Source of the DNA: the human T2T-CHM13v2.0 reference genome, Homo sapiens
Reading direction: 5' to 3' (one strand)
NCBI RefSeq assembly: GCF_009914755.1
Contig: NC_060927.1
Length of the DNA: 64,000 nucleotides
Shown: piece after piece, positions 12,974 to 28,585 of the stretch
Layout: each line of letters opens with the position of its first letter
How positions within the stretch are numbered: the stretch's first letter is position 1
Notes under the pieces: model-generated
Databases searched by the model: none
What the model saw: only the letters and a program-made list of their open reading frames with translations
Told to the model about the DNA's origin: nothing
Program-made: the position numbers and the translations under genes

Positions 12974-15092
12974 TTTTGTGCATTCTTATATTTAAAATGT
13001 GTCTCTTATAAGTAGCATATAGTACTGTTATTATCAGGTCTGAAAATGATTGTTTTTTAATTAGAATATTTACTCTGATAAAATTTGATATAGTTTCTGA
13101 TATTTAGGGGTTTAAATTTAGTGTTGATTCTCTATGTGTTTTTCTCTTGCTCTTTCTCTTCCTTTGTTCCTTCTTCCTCTCTTATAGCCTTTTGAATTAA
13201 TTAGACACTTTATTATTTTATTTTTCAACTCTTTCAGCTTATTACACATTTTTTTTACTGTTCTCTTAGTTGTTACTCTAGAGATTACTATGTGCATTCT
13301 AACCTGTTAAAATCTGATATAAAGTAGTACTTTTATATTACTTCCAAAAAAATGCAACATTCATGAAGCACATTAAGACCATTTATCCTTCTATCTTTTG
13401 TGACTTTTGTGCTATTGTTGTTGTGGATTTTGCTCCTGCATATATTTTAAACCCACATATTATTATTGTTTATATATTTCATATTTTTAGATTTACTCAT
13501 GTACTTATCCTTTCTGTTGTCCTTTATTTCATCCTATTGCTTTGTAATTTTTATATGGAACCATGTACCTTCTGACTAAAGAACTCCCATTAGTATTTTT
13601 TTGTGTGAATCTATTAATAAATAATTATGTTTTTTTAATCTCAAAAATCTTCATTTCACCTTTACTTTAGAAAAATATTTCTAACAGGTGTAGAATCCTA
13701 GTACAGTTATTTTCTTTTAGCTTTGACCTTATATTAATAGATGTTTATGGCGTACTTTCTTTTATGTTTTATGGCTTACTTACTTATTATGATGCTTATG
13801 GCTTACTTTCTTTTGTTAAGAATTCAAGTGTCAGTCTTCTTGCTGCTTTTGAAGATTATACTCATTTTTCCTCCAGTTTGTATTAACATTTCCTCTTTAC
13901 CTTTGATTTTTAGCAGTTTTGGTATGATACACTTATATGTTGTTTTCTCTGTATTGAATTTGCATGGGATTTATGACTTCCTGAATTTATGCCTTGAGGT
14001 TTTGTAAAATTCTGCCATTTTGTTCTTCAAATTTTGTCTCTGTTTCATACATCACTTGTTCATTACTTTCTTCTCCTCATCATCCCCCTTCTCCTCCTCC
14101 CCTTTCTTCTGATTTTAGGATTTCAATTGCATATATATTAAATATTTTCACTATTTCCCATATTTTATCGCTTTTAAATTATTTTTTATATTTTTCTTTC
14201 TATTTTCTCTGTGTGCTTTGTACTGAATATTTTCTTCCATCTATATTCCAATTTACTAATGCTTTCATTGACTGCTTCTAATTTGCTTTTATTAACTTTT
14301 TAATTTTAGTTATTATAGATTTTTTCAGTTCCAGAATTATCATTTGAAGAATTTTTAGATTTTTTTAGTTGTATGCTGAGATTCTCCATCTTGTCATCTG
14401 ATTTCTGGAACATATTAACATCAGTTATTTTAAAGTCCATGTACAACGATTTCAATATTTGAATCTTCAGTGGGTATATTTTTATAACCTATTTGTACTG
14501 TTGATTTTGAGTTCTGTGGTCTCATCTCCTGATATGCCTAGTAATTTTTTATTGACAACTTGACAGCCTATATGATAAATTTTACAGATATTTTAACATT
14601 CTAGATAATATTATCTTCCAGAGATAATTCACTTTTGTTTAAAAGTTAGGTAAAAGGAACATTAATTTTAACTTGACTAGCAATTTAGTTGTTTCTAGAG
14701 TTACAACTAAAAACTACTACACATTATAAGAAAAGAAAAAAAAACTCTGCTGTCTTTCAAAGATCTTATTAAAGTAATAAAAAGTATTAACCCCATATGC
14801 CACTAACATCTAAACATAGCTAAAAACTAGTTGACATTATCCTCACAGTACAACTAATGAGTCACCAAGAGGTCAGGTTCTCACCTACAGCAATAAATTG
14901 ACCCATATCTACATATTGACTCCTCACATAAGTTCAGTAGATGTTTTCAATGTCTAATTGCATATAATTTATTCAGATTAATCACTAACTGTATCATTCA
15001 TCTTACAGAAATTCCCATTATGACTAAAGTACTAATCATGAGTAGGGCCATAAAAAAGGTGATTAATCTCCTCTTTAAAATACAGCGGAGTT

Positions 15093-15389
<297 letters not shown>

Positions 15390-15513
15390 TACATATATAT
15401 ATATATATACACACACACACATATATATATACACACACATATATATACGTATATATATGTGTGGGTGTGTATATATATGTGTATATATATATGTGTGTGT
15501 GTGTATATATATA

Positions 15514-15565
<52 letters not shown>
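15390..15565. repeat. Compound (TA)n/(CA)n/(TG)n microsatellite in the Alu tail
   Basis: Alternating purine-pyrimidine tract, CA-rich left half and TG-rich right half. Confidence 0.95.
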
Positions 15566-15566
<1 letters not shown>

Positions 15567-15971
15567 CAGAGTTGGTGTAGCTGACAAGACAGCCGAATAG
15601 GAACAGCTCCAGTCTGCAGCTCCCAGCAAGATCAACGCAAAAGGTGGGAGATTTCTGCATTTCCAACTGAGGTATGCGGCTCATCTCACTGGGACTGGTT
15701 AGACTGTGGGTGCACCCCGCAGAGGGTGAGCCAAAGCAGGGTGGGGCGTTGCCTCACCCAGGAAGTGCAAGGGGTCAGCGAACTCCCTTCCCTAGCCAAC
15801 GGAAGCTGTGAGGGACCATGCCATGAGGAATGGTGCATTCCAGCCTGAATACTATGCTTTTCCCACAGTCTTCTCAACCTGCAGACCAGGAGATTCCCTT
15901 GGGTGCCTACACCACCAGGGCCTTGGGTTTCAAGCACAAAACTGGGCGGCCATTTGGGCAGTTATCAAGAG

Positions 15972-16008
15972 TTTGTTTTTTTTTTTTTTTTCGTTTTGTT
16001 TTGTTTTG

Positions 16009-16052
<44 letters not shown>
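15972..16052. repeat. T-tract/(GTTTT)n/(TG)~20 microsatellite in the L1 5' UTR
   Basis: Read directly from the sequence. Confidence 0.95.
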
Positions 16053-16055
<3 letters not shown>

Positions 16056-16970
16056 CTAGTGGCATCTGGAATGCCAGCAAGATAGAACCTTTCACTCACC
16101 TGAAAGGTGAGCTGAAGCCAGGGAGCCAAGTGGTCTAGGTCAGCAGATCCCACCCCCATGGAGCCCAGCAAGCTGAGATCCACCGGCTTGAAATACTTGC
16201 TCTCAGCACAGCAGTCTAAAGTCGACCTGGGATGCTCAAGCTTGGTGAGGGGAGGGGCGTCCACCATTACTGAGGCTTAAGTAGGCAGTTTTCCCCTCAC
16301 AGTGTAAACAAAGCCACCGGGAAGTTCGAACTGGGTGGAACACACCACAGCTTGGCAAAGCCACTGTAGCCAGACTGTCTCTCTAGATTCCTCTTATCTG
16401 GACAGGGCACCTCTGAAAGAAAGGCAGCAGCCCCAGTCAGGGGCTTATAGATAAAACTCCCATCTCCCTGGCACAGAGCACCTGGGGGAAGGGGCGGCTG
16501 TGGGCACAGCTTCAGCAGGCTTAAACTTTCTTGCCAGCCAGCTCTGAAGAGAGCAACAGATCTCCCAGCACAACGTTCGAGCTCTGAAAAGGGACAGACT
16601 GCCTCCTCAAGTCAGCCCCTGACCTCCTTGCCTCCTGACTGGGAGATACCTCCCAGCAGGGGTCGACAGACACCTCATACAGGAGAGCTCTGGCTGGCAT
16701 CTGGTGGGTGCCCCTCTTGGACGAAGCTTCCAGAGGAAGGAACAGGCAGCAATCTTTGCCGTTCTGCAGCCTCTGCTGGTGATACCCAGGAAAACAGGGT
16801 CTGTAGTGGACCTCCAGCAAACTCCAGCAGACCTGCAGCAGAGGGGCCTGTAGAAAGAAAACTAGCAAACAGAAAGGAATAGCATCAACATCAACAAAAA
16901 GAACGTCCACACAAAAACCCCATCCGAAGGTCACCAACATCAAAGACCAAAGGTAGATAAATCCACAAAG

Positions 16971-17996
16971 ATGAGACAAAACCAGTGTAAAACGGCTGAA
17001 AATTCCAAAAACTAGACTGCCTCTTCTCTTCCAAAAGATCACAACTCCTCGCCAGCAAGGGAACAAAACTGGACGGAGAATGAATTTGAAGAATTGACAG
17101 AAGTAGGCTTCAGAAGGTGAGTAATGACAAACTCCTCCAAGCTAAAGGAGCATGTTCTAACACAATGCAAGGAAGCTAAGAACCTTGAAAAAAGGTTGGA
17201 GGAATTGCTAACTAGAATAACTAATTTAGAGAAGAACATAAATGACCTGATGGAGCTGAAAAACATAGCACAAGAACTTCGTGAAGCATACACAAGTATC
17301 AATAGCTGAATGGATCAAGCAGAAGAAAAGATGTCAGAGATTGAAGATCAACTTAATGAGATGAAGTGTGAAGACAAGATTAGAGAAAAAAGAATGAAAA
17401 GCAACAACCAAAACCTACAAGATATATGGGACTATGTGAAAAGACCAAACCTACGTTTTACTGGTGTGCCTGAAACTGACGGGGAGAATGGAATCAAGTT
17501 GGAAAACACTCTTCAGGATATTATCCAGGAGAACTTCCCCAACCTAGCAAGACAGGCCAACATTCAAATTCAGGAAATACAGAGAACACCATAAAGATAC
17601 TCCTCGAGAAGAGTAACCCCAAGACACATAATCTTCATATTCACCAAGGTTGAAATGAAGGAAAAAATGTTAATAGCAGCCAGAGAGAAAGATCAGGTTA
17701 CCCACAGAGGGAAGCCCATCAGACTAACAGCAGATCTCTCTGCAGAAACCCTACAAGCCAGAAGAGAGTGGGGGCCAATATTCAACATTCTTAAAGAGAA
17801 GAATTTTCAACACAGAATTTCATATCCAGCCAAACTAAGCTTCATAAGCAAAGGAGAAATAAAATCCTTTACAGACAAGCAAATGGTGAGAGATTTTGTC
17901 ACCACCAGGCCTACCTTGCAAGAGCTCCTGAAGGAAGCACTAAATATGGAAAGGAAAAACCAGTACCAGCCACTGCAAAAACATATCAAATTGTAA
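16971..17996 (+). pseudogene. L1 ORF1p remnant (RNA-binding/chaperone protein)
   Basis: ATG at 16971; ORFs 17124, 17310 and 17655 share its frame. In-frame stops at ~17118, 17307 and 17592. Motifs WDYVKRPNLR, PIRLTADLSAETLQARREWG and YPAKLSF. Confidence 0.92.
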
Positions 17997-18059
17997 AGAC
18001 CATCGACACTAGGAAGAAACTGCATCAAGTAATGGGCAAAATAAGGAGCTAGGATTATA

Positions 18060-21867
<3,808 letters not shown>

Positions 21868-22076
21868 ATAATGAGAACACATGGACACAGGGAGGGGAAC
21901 ATCACACAACAGGGCCTGTCAGGTGGTAGGGGTCTAGGGGAGGGATAGCATTCAGAGACATACCTAATGTAGATGACGTGTTCATGGGTGCAGCAAACCA
22001 CCATGGCATGTGTATACCTATGAAATAAACCTGCACATTCTGCACAAGTATCCCAGAACTTAAAGTATAATATAAA

Positions 22077-22790
22077 TCTATATGTGTATGTATATATCTC
22101 TGCTATATATATGTACATGTATATATACATATATATCCGCTATATATGTGTATGTATATACACATATATGTCCACTATATATGTATACATACAGATATAT
22201 ACATATAGGTACATATGTAATATATATGTGCACATGTATACATATATGTACATATATACATATATTACATATGTAATATATGTATATATACACATATATA
22301 CGTATACATGTGTATATGTACATATGTACATATGTAATATATGTATATATACATATGCATATATTATACGTATATGTATAATATAATAATATATTAATAT
22401 ATTAATGAATGAATTAATTAATTCATTAATATAATAATATAATAAATTATACATATACGTATAATATATGTACTATATGTATATATACATATATGTATGG
22501 TAATATATGTATATGTACATATGCGTATATACGTGCATATATACATATATGTACATATGTGTATGTGTGTATATATACATATGGGTATATATGTGTGTAT
22601 ATGCATATATGTACCTATGTGTATATATGTGTGTATATGCATACATGTACTATGTGTATATATGTGTGTATATACATACATGTACATATGCGTATATCTG
22701 TATATACATATGTGTATATATGTGTATATATACATATACGTACATAAATGTATATATGTCTATATATACATATATGGCAGATATATAATA
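22077..22790. repeat. Degenerate (TA)/(CA)/(TG) low-complexity tract
   Basis: Alternating purine-pyrimidine sequence immediately after the L1 3' end. Confidence 0.95.
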
Positions 22791-25700
22791 TATATGGAAA
22801 TATATATAATATATTATATATGGAAATATATATTGCATTATATATGGAAATATATATAATATATTATATATGGAAATATATATTGTATTATATATGGAAA
22901 TATATATTATATTATATATAGAAATATATATTATATATGGAAATATATATTATATTATATGAGGAAATATATATTATATTATATGTGGAAATATATATTA
23001 TATTATATATGGAAATATATATTATATTATATATGGAAATATATATTATATTATATATGGAAATATATATTATATTATATATGGAAATATATTATATATT
23101 ATATGTATGGAAATATATAATATATTATATAAAATATATATTATATATAATATATATTATATATGGAAATATATATTATATATTATATATGTGGAAATAT
23201 ATATAACACATAATATATGGAAATATATATATAATAAATATATATGGAAATATATGATACATATTACATATATAGAAATATATGATATATATTATATATA
23301 TGGAAATATATGATATATATTATATATGGAAATATATATTATAGATGGAAATATATATAATATATATTATATATATGGAAATATATATAATATATATTAT
23401 ATATATTGAAATATATATAATATATATATTGAAATATATATAATATATATTATATATATTGAAATATATATAATATATATATTGAAATATATATAATATA
23501 TACATGGAAATATATATAATATATGGAAATATATATAATATATATGGAAATATATATAATATATATTATACATGGAAACATATATTATATATGGAAATAT
23601 ATATAATATATATTATATGGAAATATATATAATATATATTATATGGAACTATATATAATATATATTATATATGGAACTATATATAATATATAATATACAT
23701 GGAAAATATATAATATATGTTATATACATGGAAAATATATAATATATATTATATACATTTCCATATATAATATATATTATATACAAGGAAATATATAATA
23801 CATATTATATACATGGAAATATATAATATATATGATATACATGGAAATATATATAATATATATTATATATATGGAAATATATAATATATATTATATATGG
23901 AAATATATAATATATATTATATGGAAATATATAATATATATTATATATATGGAAATATATAATATGTATTATATATGGAAATATATAATATATATTATAT
24001 ATGGAAATATAAAATATATATTATATATATGGAAATATAAAATATATATTATATATATGGAAATCTATATAATATATATTATATGGAAATCCATATAATA
24101 TATATTATATATGGAAATCCATATAATATATATTATTTATGGAAATCTATATAATATATATTATATATGGAAATATATAATATATTATATATGGAAATAT
24201 ATATAATATATTATATATATGGAAATATATAATATATTATATATATGGAAATATATATAATATATTATATATATGGAAATATATATAATATATTATATAT
24301 ATGGAAATATAAATAATATATTATATATATGGAAATATAAATAATATATTATATATGGAAATATATAATATATTATATATATGGAAATATATAATATATT
24401 ATATATATGGAAATATATAATATATTATATATATGGAAATATATAATATATTATATATATGGAAATATATATATTATATATGGAAATATATATATTATAT
24501 ATACGGAAATATATATAATATATATATGGAAATATATATATTATATATGGAAATATATATATTATATATATGGAAACATATATAATATATTATATATGGA
24601 AATAAAATATATTATATATGGAAATATATATAATATATTATATATGGAAATATATAATATATATATGGAAATATATAATATATATATGGAAATATATAAT
24701 ATATATTATATATGGAAATATATATAATATATATTATACATGGAAATATATATAATATATTGTATATATGGAAATATATATATTGTATATATGGAAATAT
24801 ATATATTGTATATATGGAAATATATATAATATATATTGTATATATGGAAATATATATAATATATATTGTATATATGGAAATTTATATAATATATATTGTA
24901 TATATGGAAATTTATACAATATATATTGTATATATGGAAATATATGTAATATATATTGTATATATGGAAAAATATAATATATATTGTATATACGGAAATA
25001 TATATAATATATTATATATGGAAATATATATTAAATATTATATATGGAAATATATATTATATATTATATATATGGAAATATATACTATATTATATATGGA
25101 AATGTATATAACATATATAATATATATGGAAATGTATATAGCATATATAATATATATGGAAATATATATAACATATATTATATATATGGAAATGTATATA
25201 ACATATATTATGTATATGGAAATGTATATAATATATATTATATACGGAAATATATATAATATATATTATATATGGAAATATATAATATATAATATGTATT
25301 ATATATGGAAATATATAATATATATAATATATATTATATATGGAAATATATAATATATATAATATATATTATATATGGAAATATATAATATATATTATAT
25401 ATGGAAATGTATAATATATATTATATATGGAAATATATAATATATATTATATATGGAAATGTATAATATATATTATATATGGAAATGTATAATATATGTA
25501 ATATATATTATATATGGAAATGTATAATATATGTAATATATATTATATATGGAAATGTATTATATATGTAATATATATTATATGGAAATGTATAATATAT
25601 GTAATATGTATTATATATGGAAATGTATAATATATGTAATATATATTACATATGGAAATGTATAATATATGTAATATATATTACATATGGAAATGTATAA

Positions 25701-27846
25701 TATATGTAATATATATTACATATGGAAATGTATAATATATGTAATATATATTACATATGGAAATGTATAATATATGTAATATATATTACATATGGAAATG
25801 TATAATATATGTAATATATATTACATATGGAAATGTATAATATATGTAATATATATTACATATGGAAATGTATAATATATGTAATATATATTACATATGG
25901 AAATGTATAATATATGTAATATATATTACATATGGAAATGTATAATATATGTAATATATATTACATATGGAAATGTATAATATATGTAATATATATTACA
26001 TATGGAAATGTATAATATATGTAATATATATTACATATGGAAATGTATAATATATGTAATATATATTACATATGGAAATGTATAATATATGTAATATATA
26101 TTACATATGGAAATATATAATATATGTAATATATATTACATATGGAAATATATAATATATGTAATATATATTACATATGGAAATATATAATATATGTAAT
26201 ATATATTACATATGGAAATATATAATATATGTAATATATATTACATATGGAAATATATAATATATGTAATATATATTACATATGGAAATATATAATATAT
26301 GTAATATATATTACATATGGAAATATATAATATATGTAATATATATTACATATGGAAATATATAATATATGTAATATATATTACATATGGAAATATATAA
26401 TATATGTAATATATATTACATATGGAAATATATAATATATGTAATATATATTACATATGGAATATATAATATATGTAATATATATTATATATGGAAATAT
26501 ATGATATATAATATATGTAATATATATTATATATGGAAATATATGATATATAATATATGTAATATATATTATATATGGAAATATATGATATATAATATAT
26601 GTAATATATATTATATATGGAAATATATGATATATAATATATATTATATATGGAAATATATGATATATAATATATATTATATATGGAAATATATGATATA
26701 TAATATATATTATATATGGAAATATATGATGTATAATATATATTATATATGGAAATATATGATATATAATATATATTATATATGGAAATATATGATATAT
26801 AATATATATTATATATGGAAATATATGATATATAATATATATTATATGGAAATATATGATGTATAATATATATTATATATGGAAATATATGATGTATAAT
26901 ATATATTATATATGGAAATATATGATATATAATATATATTATATATGGAAATATATGATATATATAATATATATTATATATGGAAATATATGATATATAA
27001 TATACATTATATATGGAAATATATGATATATAATATACATAATATATGGAAATATATGATATGTAATATACATAATATATGGAAATATATGATATGTAAT
27101 ATACATAATATATGGAAATATATGATATGTAATATACATAATATATGGAAATATATAATATATATAATATATATAATATATGGAAATATATAATATATAT
27201 AATATATATAATATATGGAAATATATAATATATATAATATATATAATATATGGAAATATATAATATATATAATATATATAATATATGGATATATATAATA
27301 TATATAATATATGGAAATATATAATATATATTATATATGGAAATATATAATATGTATTATATATGGAAATATATAATATATATTATATATGGAAATATAT
27401 AATATATTTTATATATGGAATATATAATATATTTTATACATGGAAATATATAATACATTTTATATATGGAAATATATATAATACATTTTATAGATGGAAA
27501 TATATATACTATATTTTATAGATGGAAATATATATACTATATTTTATAGATGGAAATATATATACTATATTTTATAGATGGAAATATATATAATATATAT
27601 TATATGGAAATATATATGATATATATTATATGAGGAAATATATATAATATATATTATATGTGGAAATATACATAATATATATTGTATATGTGGAAATATA
27701 TATAATATATATTGTATATGTGGAAATATATATAATATATATTGTATATATGGAAATATATATATGGGAATATATATAAAATATATTATATATATGGGAA
27801 TATATATAAAATATATTATATATATGGAAATATATATAATATATAT
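22791..27846 (+). repeat. AT-rich minisatellite of ~20-42 bp units, each built around TATGGAAAT
   Basis: Continuous array with sub-blocks: ~26 bp, 30 bp (~24811-24960), 35 bp x24 (25616-26455), 42 bp, 33 bp and 29 bp units. Confidence 0.97.
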
Positions 27847-28002
27847 AACGGAGTTTCTTTTTTTTTCCTATAATATGTAGTGGAAAACAAGAAAAATTTA
27901 AGAATTAATTTTTAAAAAATTCAGTCTTAAGACTAAATTTTTTCGTCAGGTAGTGTGCACTCAGCTTCAAGTAACAATACACTGCTAAAAGTAGCTTTAT
28001 AA

Positions 28003-28585
<583 letters not shown>

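What the first reader, a model, noticed from the sequence alone, without database searches (positions are those of the whole stretch)
22077..27855. A 5.8-kb minisatellite apparently born from the poly(A) tail of a full-length L1
Seen: the array starts exactly where the L1 poly(A) should be (after cttaaagtataat). It ends at atataacggagtt (27843-27855), which matches atatagcagagtt immediately 5' of the L1 (15561-15573) at 11/13 bases. The array therefore lies inside the L1 TSDs. It grades from random TA/CA/TG (22077-22790), to variable TATGGAAAT units, to homogeneous fixed-length blocks. Established: retroposon tails seed microsatellites. Inference: this is a dateable, in-place record of tail to microsatellite to multi-kb minisatellite, younger than the L1PA7 insertion. 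The scale is unusual. A 3' transduction is possible but less likely, since there is no unique sequence or second poly(A) before the TSD.
Basis: partly seen in the sequence, partly recalled or inferred. Interest (0 to 1): 0.8.

Follow-up and report, generated by a model that had tools for sequence, protein, structure and literature searches.

The report
AT-rich minisatellite grown from L1 tail
A 5.8-kb, 88% A+T tandem array sits between the end of an old full-length L1 retrotransposon and its target-site duplication, so it almost certainly grew there from the element's tail; it is an unusually large example of a process that is already well known.

Summary
Homology to other genomic L1 copies stops at window 22076. 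A 5,779-bp, 88% A+T array follows and ends at AACGGAGTT (27847-27855), which matches AGCAGAGTT directly 5' of the L1 (15565-15573).

It lies directly 5' of an Alu that sits upstream of the L1. Alu and L1 therefore used one target site, which strengthens the placement of the array inside the duplication.

No second poly(A) and no unique stretch lie in the array. No sister array, junction or flank copy was found elsewhere in T2T-CHM13. 3' transduction is therefore unsupported.

The "gradient" is not monotonic. A homogeneous core (25.4-27.0 kb, including 14+10 near-identical 35-mers) lies between heterogeneous edges. The units are GGAAAT plus an AT palindrome and fold as 20-22-bp hairpins, like the FRA10B/FRA16B AT-rich minisatellites.

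Tail-born TA repeats are common but small: at most about 200 bp in 14 sampled L1 tails. No orthologous or population data could be examined. Verdict: a real but ordinary mechanism at a large size; modest interest.

The parts
15077..15092 (+). Target-site duplication, copy 1: AAAATACAGCGGAGTT. It is intact and unexpanded, and is preceded by cctcTTT, giving a TTT|AAAA L1-endonuclease-type site.
   Evidence: Read. AGCGGAGTT matches exactly at 15084-15092. It abuts the Alu left monomer, which starts at 15093.
15093..15389 (+). Alu element (two SRP-derived monomers) with a 16-A tail at 15374-15389.
   Evidence: Rfam Metazoa_SRP matches 15093-15209 (E 5.3e-15) and 15227-15375 (E 2.3e-08), both below the gathering score. 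Sequence read. The AluS-type label is recalled, not tested.
15386..15573 (+). Target-site duplication, copy 2, split open: AAAATACA (15386-15393), then a 171-bp (TA)n/(CA)n/(TG)n compound microsatellite (15394-15564), then AGCAGAGTT (15565-15573).
   Evidence: sequence; TRF rows 15389-15565; 9-mer with 1 mismatch. Positions 15400-15540 fold as a CA..TG quasi-palindrome with z -5.8.
15574..22076 (+). Full-length, decayed L1 of the primate L1PA type. It has a 5' UTR with an internal (T)n(TTTGT)n(TG)n tract, ORF1 domains, a broken ORF2 and a 3' end reading ...CTTAAAGTATAAT.
   Evidence: 5' terminus and 3' terminus. Pfam finds Tnp_22_trimer, Transposase_22 and Tnp_22_dsRBD at 17310-17996. RVT_1 matches a fragment at 19692-19868 (E 1.3e-4, below cut-off). 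Many stops interrupt the frames.
22077..22795 (+). Proximal part of the array: TA/CA/TG compound repeat (about 17-18.5% G+C in the two 400-bp windows that lie within it) with diverged higher-order periods of 35, 26, 58, 70 and 99 bp. It includes a palindrome centred at 22415/22416.
   Evidence: The three 35-bp copies differ at a CpG (CCGCT / CTGCT / CCACT), read.
22796..27846 (+). GGAAAT-anchored AT-rich minisatellite of 173 units, 15-57 bp long (modes 35, 26, 28, 33, 30, 24). All but one unit are in the same orientation.
   Evidence: parse; TRF; identity against lag; 8.5-13.5% G+C with strong G>C skew.
25619..26458 (+). Youngest, homogeneous core: 14 identical 35-mers followed by 10 identical 35-mers that differ from them by one G>A.
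   Evidence: The exact 35-mer occurs 14 times in T2T-CHM13, all here.
27847..27855 (+). Target-site duplication, copy 3: AACGGAGTT. It is followed by the original downstream flank tcttttttttt...
   Evidence: sequence; 1 mismatch to copy 1. The downstream flank 27847-28270 is single copy in the genome.

Best explanation
An Alu and a full-length L1, both on the + strand, inserted by target-primed reverse transcription into one and the same site, ...cctcTTT|AAAATACAGCGGAGTT|tcttttttt.... This left three copies of the target. The order of the two insertions is not resolved.

The 5.8-kb array occupies the place between the L1 3' terminus and the last target copy, so it arose there after the L1 insertion. 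The proposed course (inferred) is:
1. The A-tail and the adjoining TACA of the duplicated target decayed into a TA/CA/TG compound microsatellite. The same thing is visible at 171-bp scale behind the Alu tail.
2. Point changes created G-containing interruptions (TATGGG, TATGGCAG, TATGGAAAT are read at 22590-22800). This turned the tract into 24-35-bp units made of GGAAAT plus an AT palindrome.
3. These hairpin-forming units were multiplied by replication slippage and unequal sister-chromatid exchange, mostly in the interior. That produced a young homogeneous core between older, diverged edges.

The array has no shown function. It is best seen as a neutral, probably length-polymorphic and replication-unfriendly by-product of retrotransposition.
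For: Shown:
- The L1 3' terminus is at 22076: 26 of 39 other copies end at 22075-22077. The array starts there.
- The L1 5' terminus is at about 15574.
- + strand 9-mers AGCGGAGTT, AGCAGAGTT and AACGGAGTT lie exactly at the Alu 5' edge, the L1 5' edge and the distal edge of the array. The chance of an 8/9 or better match at one fixed position is 28/4^9, about 1e-4 (my calculation).
- Copy 1 follows a TTT|AAAA site.
- The array contains no A-run of 6 or more and no stretch of unique sequence.
- The exact 35-mer (14 of 14 hits), the 26-mer dimer with up to 2 mismatches (24 of 24 hits) and the L1/array junction with up to 3 mismatches (1 of 1 hit) occur only here in T2T-CHM13. Both flanks are single copy.
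- Unit identity falls with distance, from 0.90 at lag 1 to 0.74 at lag 120. The core is 0.95-1.00 identical between neighbours, and the edges 0.67-0.90.
- Units fold as perfect 20-22-bp hairpins, z -5.3 to -7.7, with 0 of 200 shuffles as good.

Established in print:
- Poly(A) tails give rise to TA and other microsatellites (PMC3812793, passages and Fig. 3 legend read).
- AT-rich minisatellites form secondary structures, stall forks, and gain or lose whole units (PMC2875025, passages read).
Against: - No outgroup or second human haplotype was examined, so 'absent before the L1' is inferred from the TSD geometry alone.
- The L1's own TSD pair matches at only 7/9 outside the TA part. Confidence rests on the intermediate third copy.
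- Two insertions sharing the identical distal nick position is itself a coincidence that needs explaining.
- No remnant of a poly(A) run survives at 22072-22090 (ATAAATCTATATG), so derivation from the tail is positional, not sequence-based.
- L1 endonuclease favours AT-rich DNA, and adjacency can mislead. At chr4:66.64 Mb a 2.5-kb AT-rich array abuts an L1 tail but lies outside its TSD.
- GGAAAT-punctuated TA arrays also arise away from L1 tails, as at chr1:172.05 Mb.
Confidence: 0.72

Rival explanations
1. Seed carried in the TSD (Alu first). The Alu inserted first, and its tail/TSD junction grew the TA/CA/TG microsatellite. The L1 then nicked inside that tract, so its long TSD duplicated part of the microsatellite together with AGCGGAGTT. 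The copy behind the L1 tail later expanded to 5.8 kb. In this reading the array is still post-L1 and in place, but its seed is an Alu-born microsatellite, not the L1 poly(A).
For: - Both copy 2 and copy 3 are preceded by TATATATA.
- The Alu-side tract and the proximal array have the same TA/CA/TG make-up.
- Both show ~34-35-bp higher-order periods.
- Alu A-tails are known insertion targets (recalled).
Against: - No alignable homology between 15394-15564 and the array was shown; both are low-complexity sequence.
- It requires an atypical nick in a TA tract.
- Parallel growth from two identical A-tail+TACA seeds explains the same facts.
Confidence: 0.15
2. 3' transduction. The L1 transcript read through into an AT-rich array downstream of its progenitor and carried it (or a short version of it) to this site.
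For: - The array follows the L1 3' end directly, and no clean poly(A) separates them.
- L1 3' transduction is common (recalled).
Against: - There is no A-run of 6 or more and no second poly(A) before the distal TSD, and no unique sequence.
- Unit, dimer and junction searches hit only this locus in T2T-CHM13.
- The looser gapped GGAAAT pattern gave 160 matches, of which 100 were listed: 84 at one unrelated 14/16-bp array on chr1 that is not next to an L1, and 16 here. The other 60 were not shown.
- An old progenitor or its array could have been lost, so this is absence of support, not disproof.
Confidence: 0.05
3. Pre-existing array. An AT-rich array was already at the site, the L1 (whose endonuclease favours AT-rich DNA) landed at its edge, and the distal AACGGAGTT match is fortuitous or belongs only to the Alu event.
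For: - The L1 TSD pair alone matches at only 7/9.
- The 9-mer with up to 1 mismatch is not rare in the window: 6 found against 5.0 expected.
- A 2.5-kb AT-rich array lies outside the TSD next to an L1 tail at chr4:66.64 Mb.
Against: - Copy 1 (15077-15092) shows the target with no array in it.
- AGCAGAGTT sits immediately 5' of the L1 (15565-15573). The L1 therefore duplicated that 9-mer, and its partner should lie 3' of the insertion, which is exactly where AACGGAGTT is found.
- No copy of the 9-mer with up to 1 mismatch lies near 22077.
Confidence: 0.07

Closest known systems
Microsatellites born from L1/Alu poly(A) tails (reviewed in PMC3812793; passages read)
   Same: It starts at the retroposon 3' terminus, lies inside the TSD, and is TA-based. 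The review's Fig. 3C legend describes exactly a TA repeat forming at the end of the A-tract. In T2T-CHM13 the pattern L1 3' end + up to 25 bp + (TA)10 gave 78 forward and 390 (redundant) reverse matches.
   Different: Size and unit length differ. The 11 distinct chr1 cases sampled had AT-rich tails of 80 bp or less. Three further cases were about 40-190 bp, the longest read by eye from the printed sequence. Here the tract is 5.8 kb and has moved on to 24-42-bp units. The review deals with 1-6-bp repeats only.
AT-rich minisatellites of the rare fragile sites FRA10B (~42-bp unit, 91% AT, fragile above 5 kb) and FRA16B (33/35-bp unit), as described in PMC9714581 and PMC2875025 (passages read)
   Same: 88% A+T, variable 24-42-bp units, kb scale, and strong predicted hairpins. 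Local blocks of identical units imply whole-unit gain and loss.
   Different: - No cytogenetic fragility is known at 3q12.1 (recalled).
- Unit homology with FRA10B/FRA16B was not tested.
- The array is heterogeneous rather than a long pure expansion.
- Here the origin from a retroposon tail can be read from the TSDs.
- I found no statement on the origin of the FRA10B/FRA16B repeats in the passages I read.
TE-derived minisatellites (PMC3389668; passages read)
   Same: A tandem array attached to a transposable element and expanded by local duplication of neighbouring units.
   Different: That survey counted arrays made of TE body sequence. It deliberately excluded repeats below 40% G+C as poly(A)/poly(T)-derived low complexity, so arrays like this one fall outside its catalogue.
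Other AT-rich arrays seen here: chr4:66.64 Mb (2.5 kb, 20-29-bp units), chr4:106.96 Mb (0.6 kb), chr6:102.27 Mb (0.6 kb), chr5:39.24 Mb (0.4-0.5 kb) next to L1 3' ends; chr1:172.05 Mb (1.7 kb, 14/16-bp GGAAAT units)
   Same: They are AT-rich minisatellites abutting L1 tails. The chr1 array has the same GGAAAT punctuation.
   Different: All are smaller. The chr4:66.64 array lies outside the L1 TSD. The chr1 array is not next to an L1 tail. Units are not shared: the 37-nt dimer with up to 2 mismatches was found only at the chr3 locus.

Membership tests
Retroposon-tail-derived tandem repeat | Begins at the 3' terminus of the element, where the poly(A) tail should be | tested here: met
   Homology of 26 of 39 other L1 copies ends at window 22075-22077. 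The array begins at 22072-22077.
Retroposon-tail-derived tandem repeat | Enclosed by the element's target-site duplication | tested here: met
   AGCAGAGTT lies at 15565-15573 directly 5' of the L1, and AACGGAGTT at 27847-27855 directly 3' of the array. Each matches at 8/9 the intact copy AGCGGAGTT at 15084-15092.
Retroposon-tail-derived tandem repeat | Absent or shorter at orthologous loci that diverged near or before the insertion | not testable with these tools
   Only T2T-CHM13 is held; no primate assemblies or other human haplotypes were available.
Retroposon-tail-derived tandem repeat | Motif derivable from an A-tract | tested here: inconclusive
   The array is A>T and 88% A+T, but there is no A-run of 6 or more anywhere. 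The TSD's own TACA is an equally good seed.
L1 3' transduction | Unique non-L1 sequence after the L1 end, closed by a second poly(A) before the TSD | tested here: not met
   There is no A-run of 6 or more. Only one 100-bp window (22372-22472, a palindrome) has more than 30% of its 8-mers unique within the array. The distal end reads ...ATATATATAACGGAGTT.
L1 3' transduction | The same sequence present downstream of a progenitor L1 elsewhere | tested here: not met
   The 35-mer (14/14), the 26-mer dimer with up to 2 mismatches (24/24) and the junction with up to 3 mismatches (1/1) occur only at this locus in T2T-CHM13. One genome only; a lost or diverged source cannot be excluded.
AT-rich fragile-site-type minisatellite (FRA10B/FRA16B class) | AT-rich (~90%) units of about 30-45 bp in a kb-scale array | tested here: met
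   88.1% A+T, unit modes 26-35 bp (up to 42), 5.8 kb. Compared with the descriptions in PMC9714581.
AT-rich fragile-site-type minisatellite (FRA10B/FRA16B class) | Stable intrastrand secondary structure | tested here: met
   Three unit blocks fold into perfect 20-22-bp hairpins, z -7.7, -6.8 and -5.3, with 0 of 200 shuffles as stable. The proximal part gives z -0.8 and a flank control z -1.8. This is prediction only.
AT-rich fragile-site-type minisatellite (FRA10B/FRA16B class) | Cytogenetic fragility induced by distamycin A or BrdU, with expanded alleles segregating | not testable with these tools
   No cytogenetic or population data. No fragile site at 3q12.1 is known to me (recalled).
Full-length L1PA element | Family 5' and 3' termini, ORF1 and ORF2 remnants, TSD, TTTT/AA-type target | tested here: met
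   Termini. ORF1 domains. A weak RVT_1 fragment. TSD and the TTT|AAAA site.
Full-length L1PA element | Subfamily L1PA7 (diagnostic positions) | not testable with these tools
   No repeat-family library is held. The best-scoring other copies are 87-90% (5' end) and 87-93% (3' end) identical. This fits an old primate L1PA but does not name the subfamily.

The most novel reading that the evidence does not exclude
The locus may be a natural triplicate experiment. One 16-bp target exists three times. The two copies that follow a retroposon A-tail both sprouted TA/CA/TG repeats (171 bp and 5.8 kb), and the copy without an A-tail stayed intact. This would show that A-tail plus TACA context is enough to determine repeat birth. 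The L1-side product, a >5-kb hairpin-forming AT-rich array in an ordinary haplotype, would then be an unrecognised FRA10B-like unstable or fragile locus at 3q12.1, about 43 kb upstream of ST3GAL6.
Probability: 0.1. Interest if true: 0.5.

Novelty: new member of a known kind. Interest (0 to 1): 0.3.

Why it matters
The origin of minisatellites is harder to document than that of microsatellites. At this locus the bounding target-site duplications, present in three copies, fix where the array began. Its internal map (diverged compound microsatellite, variable units, young identical blocks) also shows how it grew. With ape and monkey T2T assemblies it could give a timed series for microsatellite-to-minisatellite conversion. 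With pangenome haplotypes it could give a mutation-rate estimate for an AT-rich hairpin array of fragile-site type. The underlying principles are all established, so it matters as a clean worked example, not as a new mechanism.

Tried and rejected
- Paper searches for this locus or for tail-born AT-rich minisatellites found nothing specific. ST3GAL6+VNTR gave 4 irrelevant papers. The AT-rich/LINE-1/T2T terms gave reviews only. So I found nothing in print on this array, and I claim no more than that.
- The human-specific VNTR table of PMC8327921 has no entry near the estimated hg38 position. I searched the number prefixes 9867/9868/9869, and one of its files could not be searched. The hg38 position is my own estimate from a recalled ST3GAL6 start coordinate.
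- Rfam at gathering threshold finds nothing in 21900-28100. The sub-threshold miRNA-family hits in the Alu-side microsatellite (best: mir-3149, 62 bits against a cut-off of 100) are TA/CA/TG hairpin look-alikes and were rejected.
- A paralogous empty-site test failed for lack of paralogues; both flanks are single copy.
The plain-letter substitute is insensitive and missed this locus itself. It gave 6 places. I fetched 4 and dropped 2 (chr5:167.40 Mb and chr6:48.95 Mb) whose printed starts were not repeats. The frequency of kb-scale cases is therefore not established.
- My AT-content 'extent' measure failed on arrays below 80% A+T (it returned 0 for this locus), so I replaced it with TRF.
- A single Alu-L1 template-switch chimera was considered and rejected because a TSD copy sits between the two elements.
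- ORF2 endonuclease and most reverse-transcriptase fragments gave no Pfam match.
Full report
**1. What is there**

The window holds, all on the + strand, an Alu (15093-15389), a full-length but decayed L1 (15574-22076) and a 5,779-bp AT-rich tandem array (22077-27855).

The array:
- TRF reports one array running to 27847. The best row has period 26, 204.5 copies, 74% matches and score 3130.
- Composition is A 2708, T 2383, G 552, C 136, which is 88.1% A+T.
- G+C is about 17-18.5% in the two 400-bp windows that lie within the proximal part and 8.5-13.5% in the rest, with strong G>C skew.

The element boundaries were fixed independently by comparison with other L1 copies in the same genome (T2T-CHM13, searchable as G000).
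- For query 21650-22140, 26 of 39 other copies end at window 22075-22077 and 9 end at 22070-22072. The remaining 4 run on only because they have TA-type tails of their own (40 of 8,821 candidates were scored, at 87-93% identity).
- For query 15540-15800, none of 39 other copies starts upstream of 15567, and 21 start at 15573-15577 (87-90% identity).
- Pfam finds the three L1 ORF1 domains at 17310-17996 and a weak reverse-transcriptase fragment at 19692-19868 (E 1.3e-4, below the cut-off).
- The frames are full of stops.
- The label 'L1PA7' could not be tested, because no repeat-family library is held.

**2. The target-site duplication exists in three copies**

- Five of those 13 bases are just TA repeat. 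The informative 9-mers, AGCAGAGTT and AACGGAGTT, agree at only 7/9.
- The 9-mer with up to 1 mismatch is not over-represented in the window: 6 found against 5.0 expected.

A third, intact copy settles the matter.
- AGCGGAGTT lies at 15084-15092, inside AAAATACAGCGGAGTT (15077-15092).
- It sits immediately 5' of the Alu, whose left SRP-derived monomer starts at 15093 (Rfam Metazoa_SRP 15093-15209, E 5.3e-15, and 15227-15375, E 2.3e-08, both sub-threshold).
- It matches each of the other two copies at 8/9.
- It is preceded by cctcTTT, which gives the classical TTT|AAAA endonuclease site (the consensus is recalled).
- The three + strand copies sit exactly at the Alu 5' edge, the L1 5' edge and the distal edge of the array. 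A match of 8/9 or better at a fixed position has probability 28/4^9, about 1e-4 (my calculation).

The Alu and the L1 therefore hit the same target, and the array lies inside the L1's duplication. The order of the two insertions cannot be read from this one genome. A single Alu-L1 template-switch chimera is unlikely, because a TSD copy lies between the two elements.

**3. A small-scale replica behind the Alu**

After the Alu's 16-A tail the sequence reads AAAATACA. A 171-bp (TA)n/(CA)n/(TG)n tract follows (15394-15564), and then GCAGAGTT. The middle TSD copy has thus been split open by a microsatellite that grew out of ...A(n)TACA.
- TRF sees a 34-bp higher-order period in this tract.
- It folds as one long CA..TG quasi-palindrome with z -5.8.
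- The proximal 0.7 kb of the big array has the same TA/CA/TG make-up and a 35-bp period.

Two readings fit. Either two identical A-tail+TACA contexts gave rise to the same kind of repeat independently, or (Alu first) the L1's TSD duplicated part of an existing tract. The copy without an A-tail in front (15077-15092) did not expand.

**4. Anatomy of the array**

The proximal part, 22077-22795, is not random.
- It holds diverged 35-, 26-, 58-, 70- and 99-bp periods.
- It holds many quasi-palindromes, including one centred at 22415/22416.
- Its three 35-bp copies differ at a CpG (CCGCT / CTGCT / CCACT, read), which suggests they are old.

From 22796 on, parsing on GGAAAT gives 173 units of 15-57 bp. 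The commonest lengths are 35, 26, 28, 33, 30 and 24 bp. All units are in one orientation except a single TTTCCA (count; read at 23758-23763).

The similarity pattern along the array is as follows:
- Unit identity falls steadily with distance: 0.90 at lag 1, 0.83 at lag 10 and 0.74 at lag 120.
- Neighbour identity is 0.74-0.94 up to 25.4 kb and 0.95-1.00 from 25.4 to 27.4 kb. It is 0.93 in 27.39-27.72 kb and falls to 0.67 for the last four units.
- The core contains 14 identical 35-mers followed by 10 that differ by one G>A (25619-26458).
- The first and last 15 units resemble each other (0.76) more than either resembles the core (0.69 and 0.71).

The rare junction TATGAGGAAAT occurs only at 22958 and 27629. 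In both places TATGTGGAAAT follows one unit later.

This is the usual picture of interior turnover with relic edges.

**5. Structure**

A typical unit is GGAA plus a 22-nt perfect AT palindrome. Folded as single-stranded DNA, three blocks of units form perfect 20-22-bp hairpins with the GGAAAT segment in the loop. The z-scores are -7.7, -6.8 and -5.3, with 0 of 200 dinucleotide shuffles as stable. The proximal part gives z -0.8 and a flank control z -1.8.

There is no pure (TA) run of 12 bp or more in the array.

**6. Tests of the rival readings**

Transduction:
- There is no A-run of 6 or more, no second poly(A) before the distal TSD, and no unique stretch.
- The exact 35-mer (14 of 14 hits), the 26-mer dimer with up to 2 mismatches (24 of 24) and the L1/array junction with up to 3 mismatches (1 of 1) occur only here in T2T-CHM13.
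- Both flanks are single copy.
- A looser gapped GGAAAT pattern found one other array, at chr1:172.05 Mb. It is 1.7 kb with 14/16-bp units and is not at an L1 tail. Sixty of that search's 160 matches were not listed. The motif has thus arisen elsewhere, but this is not a source locus.

Pre-existing array:
- This is contradicted by the intact copy 1 and by the 9-mer sitting directly 5' of the L1.
- It cannot be excluded without outgroups.
- Adjacency alone would not be enough. At chr4:66.64 Mb a 2.5-kb AT-rich array abuts an L1 tail but lies outside its TSD.

**7. Scale**

TA repeats at L1 tails are common. The pattern L1 3' 13-mer + up to 25 bp + (TA)10 gave 78 forward and 390 (redundant) reverse matches.
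- The 30 loci returned collapse to 11 places on chr1, all with AT-rich tails of 80 bp or less.
- Three further L1 copies had tails of about 40-190 bp, the longest read by eye from the printed sequence.
- An insensitive pattern for arrays of 0.5 kb or more missed this locus itself. It gave 6 places. The 4 that I fetched carry arrays of 0.44, 0.58, 0.6 and 2.5 kb.

The 5.8-kb array is the largest seen here. Kb-scale neighbours exist, and the true frequency of such cases was not established.

**8. Comparison with what is known**

- Birth of TA and other microsatellites from L1/Alu poly(A) tails is textbook. PMC3812793 (passages read) describes in its Fig. 3C legend a TA repeat forming at the end of the A-tract.
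- TE-derived minisatellites have been catalogued in PMC3389668 (passages read). That survey excluded repeats below 40% G+C, so this class was left out.
- By composition, unit size, length and predicted hairpins the array works like the AT-rich minisatellites of FRA10B (~42-bp unit, 91% AT, fragile above 5 kb) and FRA16B (33/35-bp unit). Those form secondary structures, stall forks, and gain or lose whole units (PMC9714581 and PMC2875025, passages read).
- Membership of the fragile-site class is not shown. Fragility and expansion were not testable and unit homology was not tested. No fragile site at 3q12.1 is known to me (recalled).

I found nothing in print on this particular array. NCBI's file already masks 21928-27928 as repeat (hub annotation).

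**9. Verdict**

It needs correcting on the 'gradient', on the seed (A-tail plus the TSD's TACA, or a tract carried in the TSD) and on dateability (only an upper bound follows, and the subfamily is unverified). This is a large, clean example of a known process: a new member of a known kind, of modest interest (0.3). My confidence that the array grew in place after the L1 insertion is about 0.72. The missing piece is cross-species and population data.

Noticed in passing
window 15394-15564: The microsatellite behind the Alu tail is CA-rich on the left and TG-rich on the right. It folds as one ~140-nt hairpin (z -5.8). It gives sub-threshold Rfam hits to several miRNA hairpin families (best: mir-3149, 62 bits against a cut-off of 100). 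These are probably look-alikes, not genes.
   Followed up: partly
window 15972-16052: A (T)n(TTTGT)n(TG)20 microsatellite lies inside the L1 5' UTR. It lengthens the element.
   Followed up: no
window 22358-22470: A distinct AT-only palindrome centred at 22415/22416, with arms 87-90% complementary. It is the only 100-bp stretch of the array with many 8-mers that are unique within the array.
   Followed up: partly
window 23730-23786: This is the only inverted unit in the array. A single TTTCCA sits inside a 57-bp double unit, which suggests one local inversion or template switch.
   Followed up: no
L073 (G000:C1:172051165-172052860, - strand): A second GGAAAT-punctuated TA array lies on chr1. 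It has about 1.35 kb of 14/16-bp units plus about 0.34 kb of a palindromic TATAAGTATATATACTTATAG-type repeat. It is not next to an L1 tail. The GGAAAT interruption of TA tracts has therefore arisen more than once.
   Followed up: partly
L081 (G000:C4:66638460-66641100, - strand): An L1 3' end and a 24-bp L1 3' fragment are each followed by an A-tail and the same ATACTCCATGGATACA. This is another re-used target site. A 2.5-kb AT-rich minisatellite then follows, lying outside the TSD.
   Followed up: partly
window 15077-15092 / 15386-15573 / 27847-27855: Two independent retroposon insertions share the same distal nick position (after GAGTT). Whether this reflects a preferred second-strand cleavage site next to the T-run tcttttttttt was not examined.
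   Followed up: no
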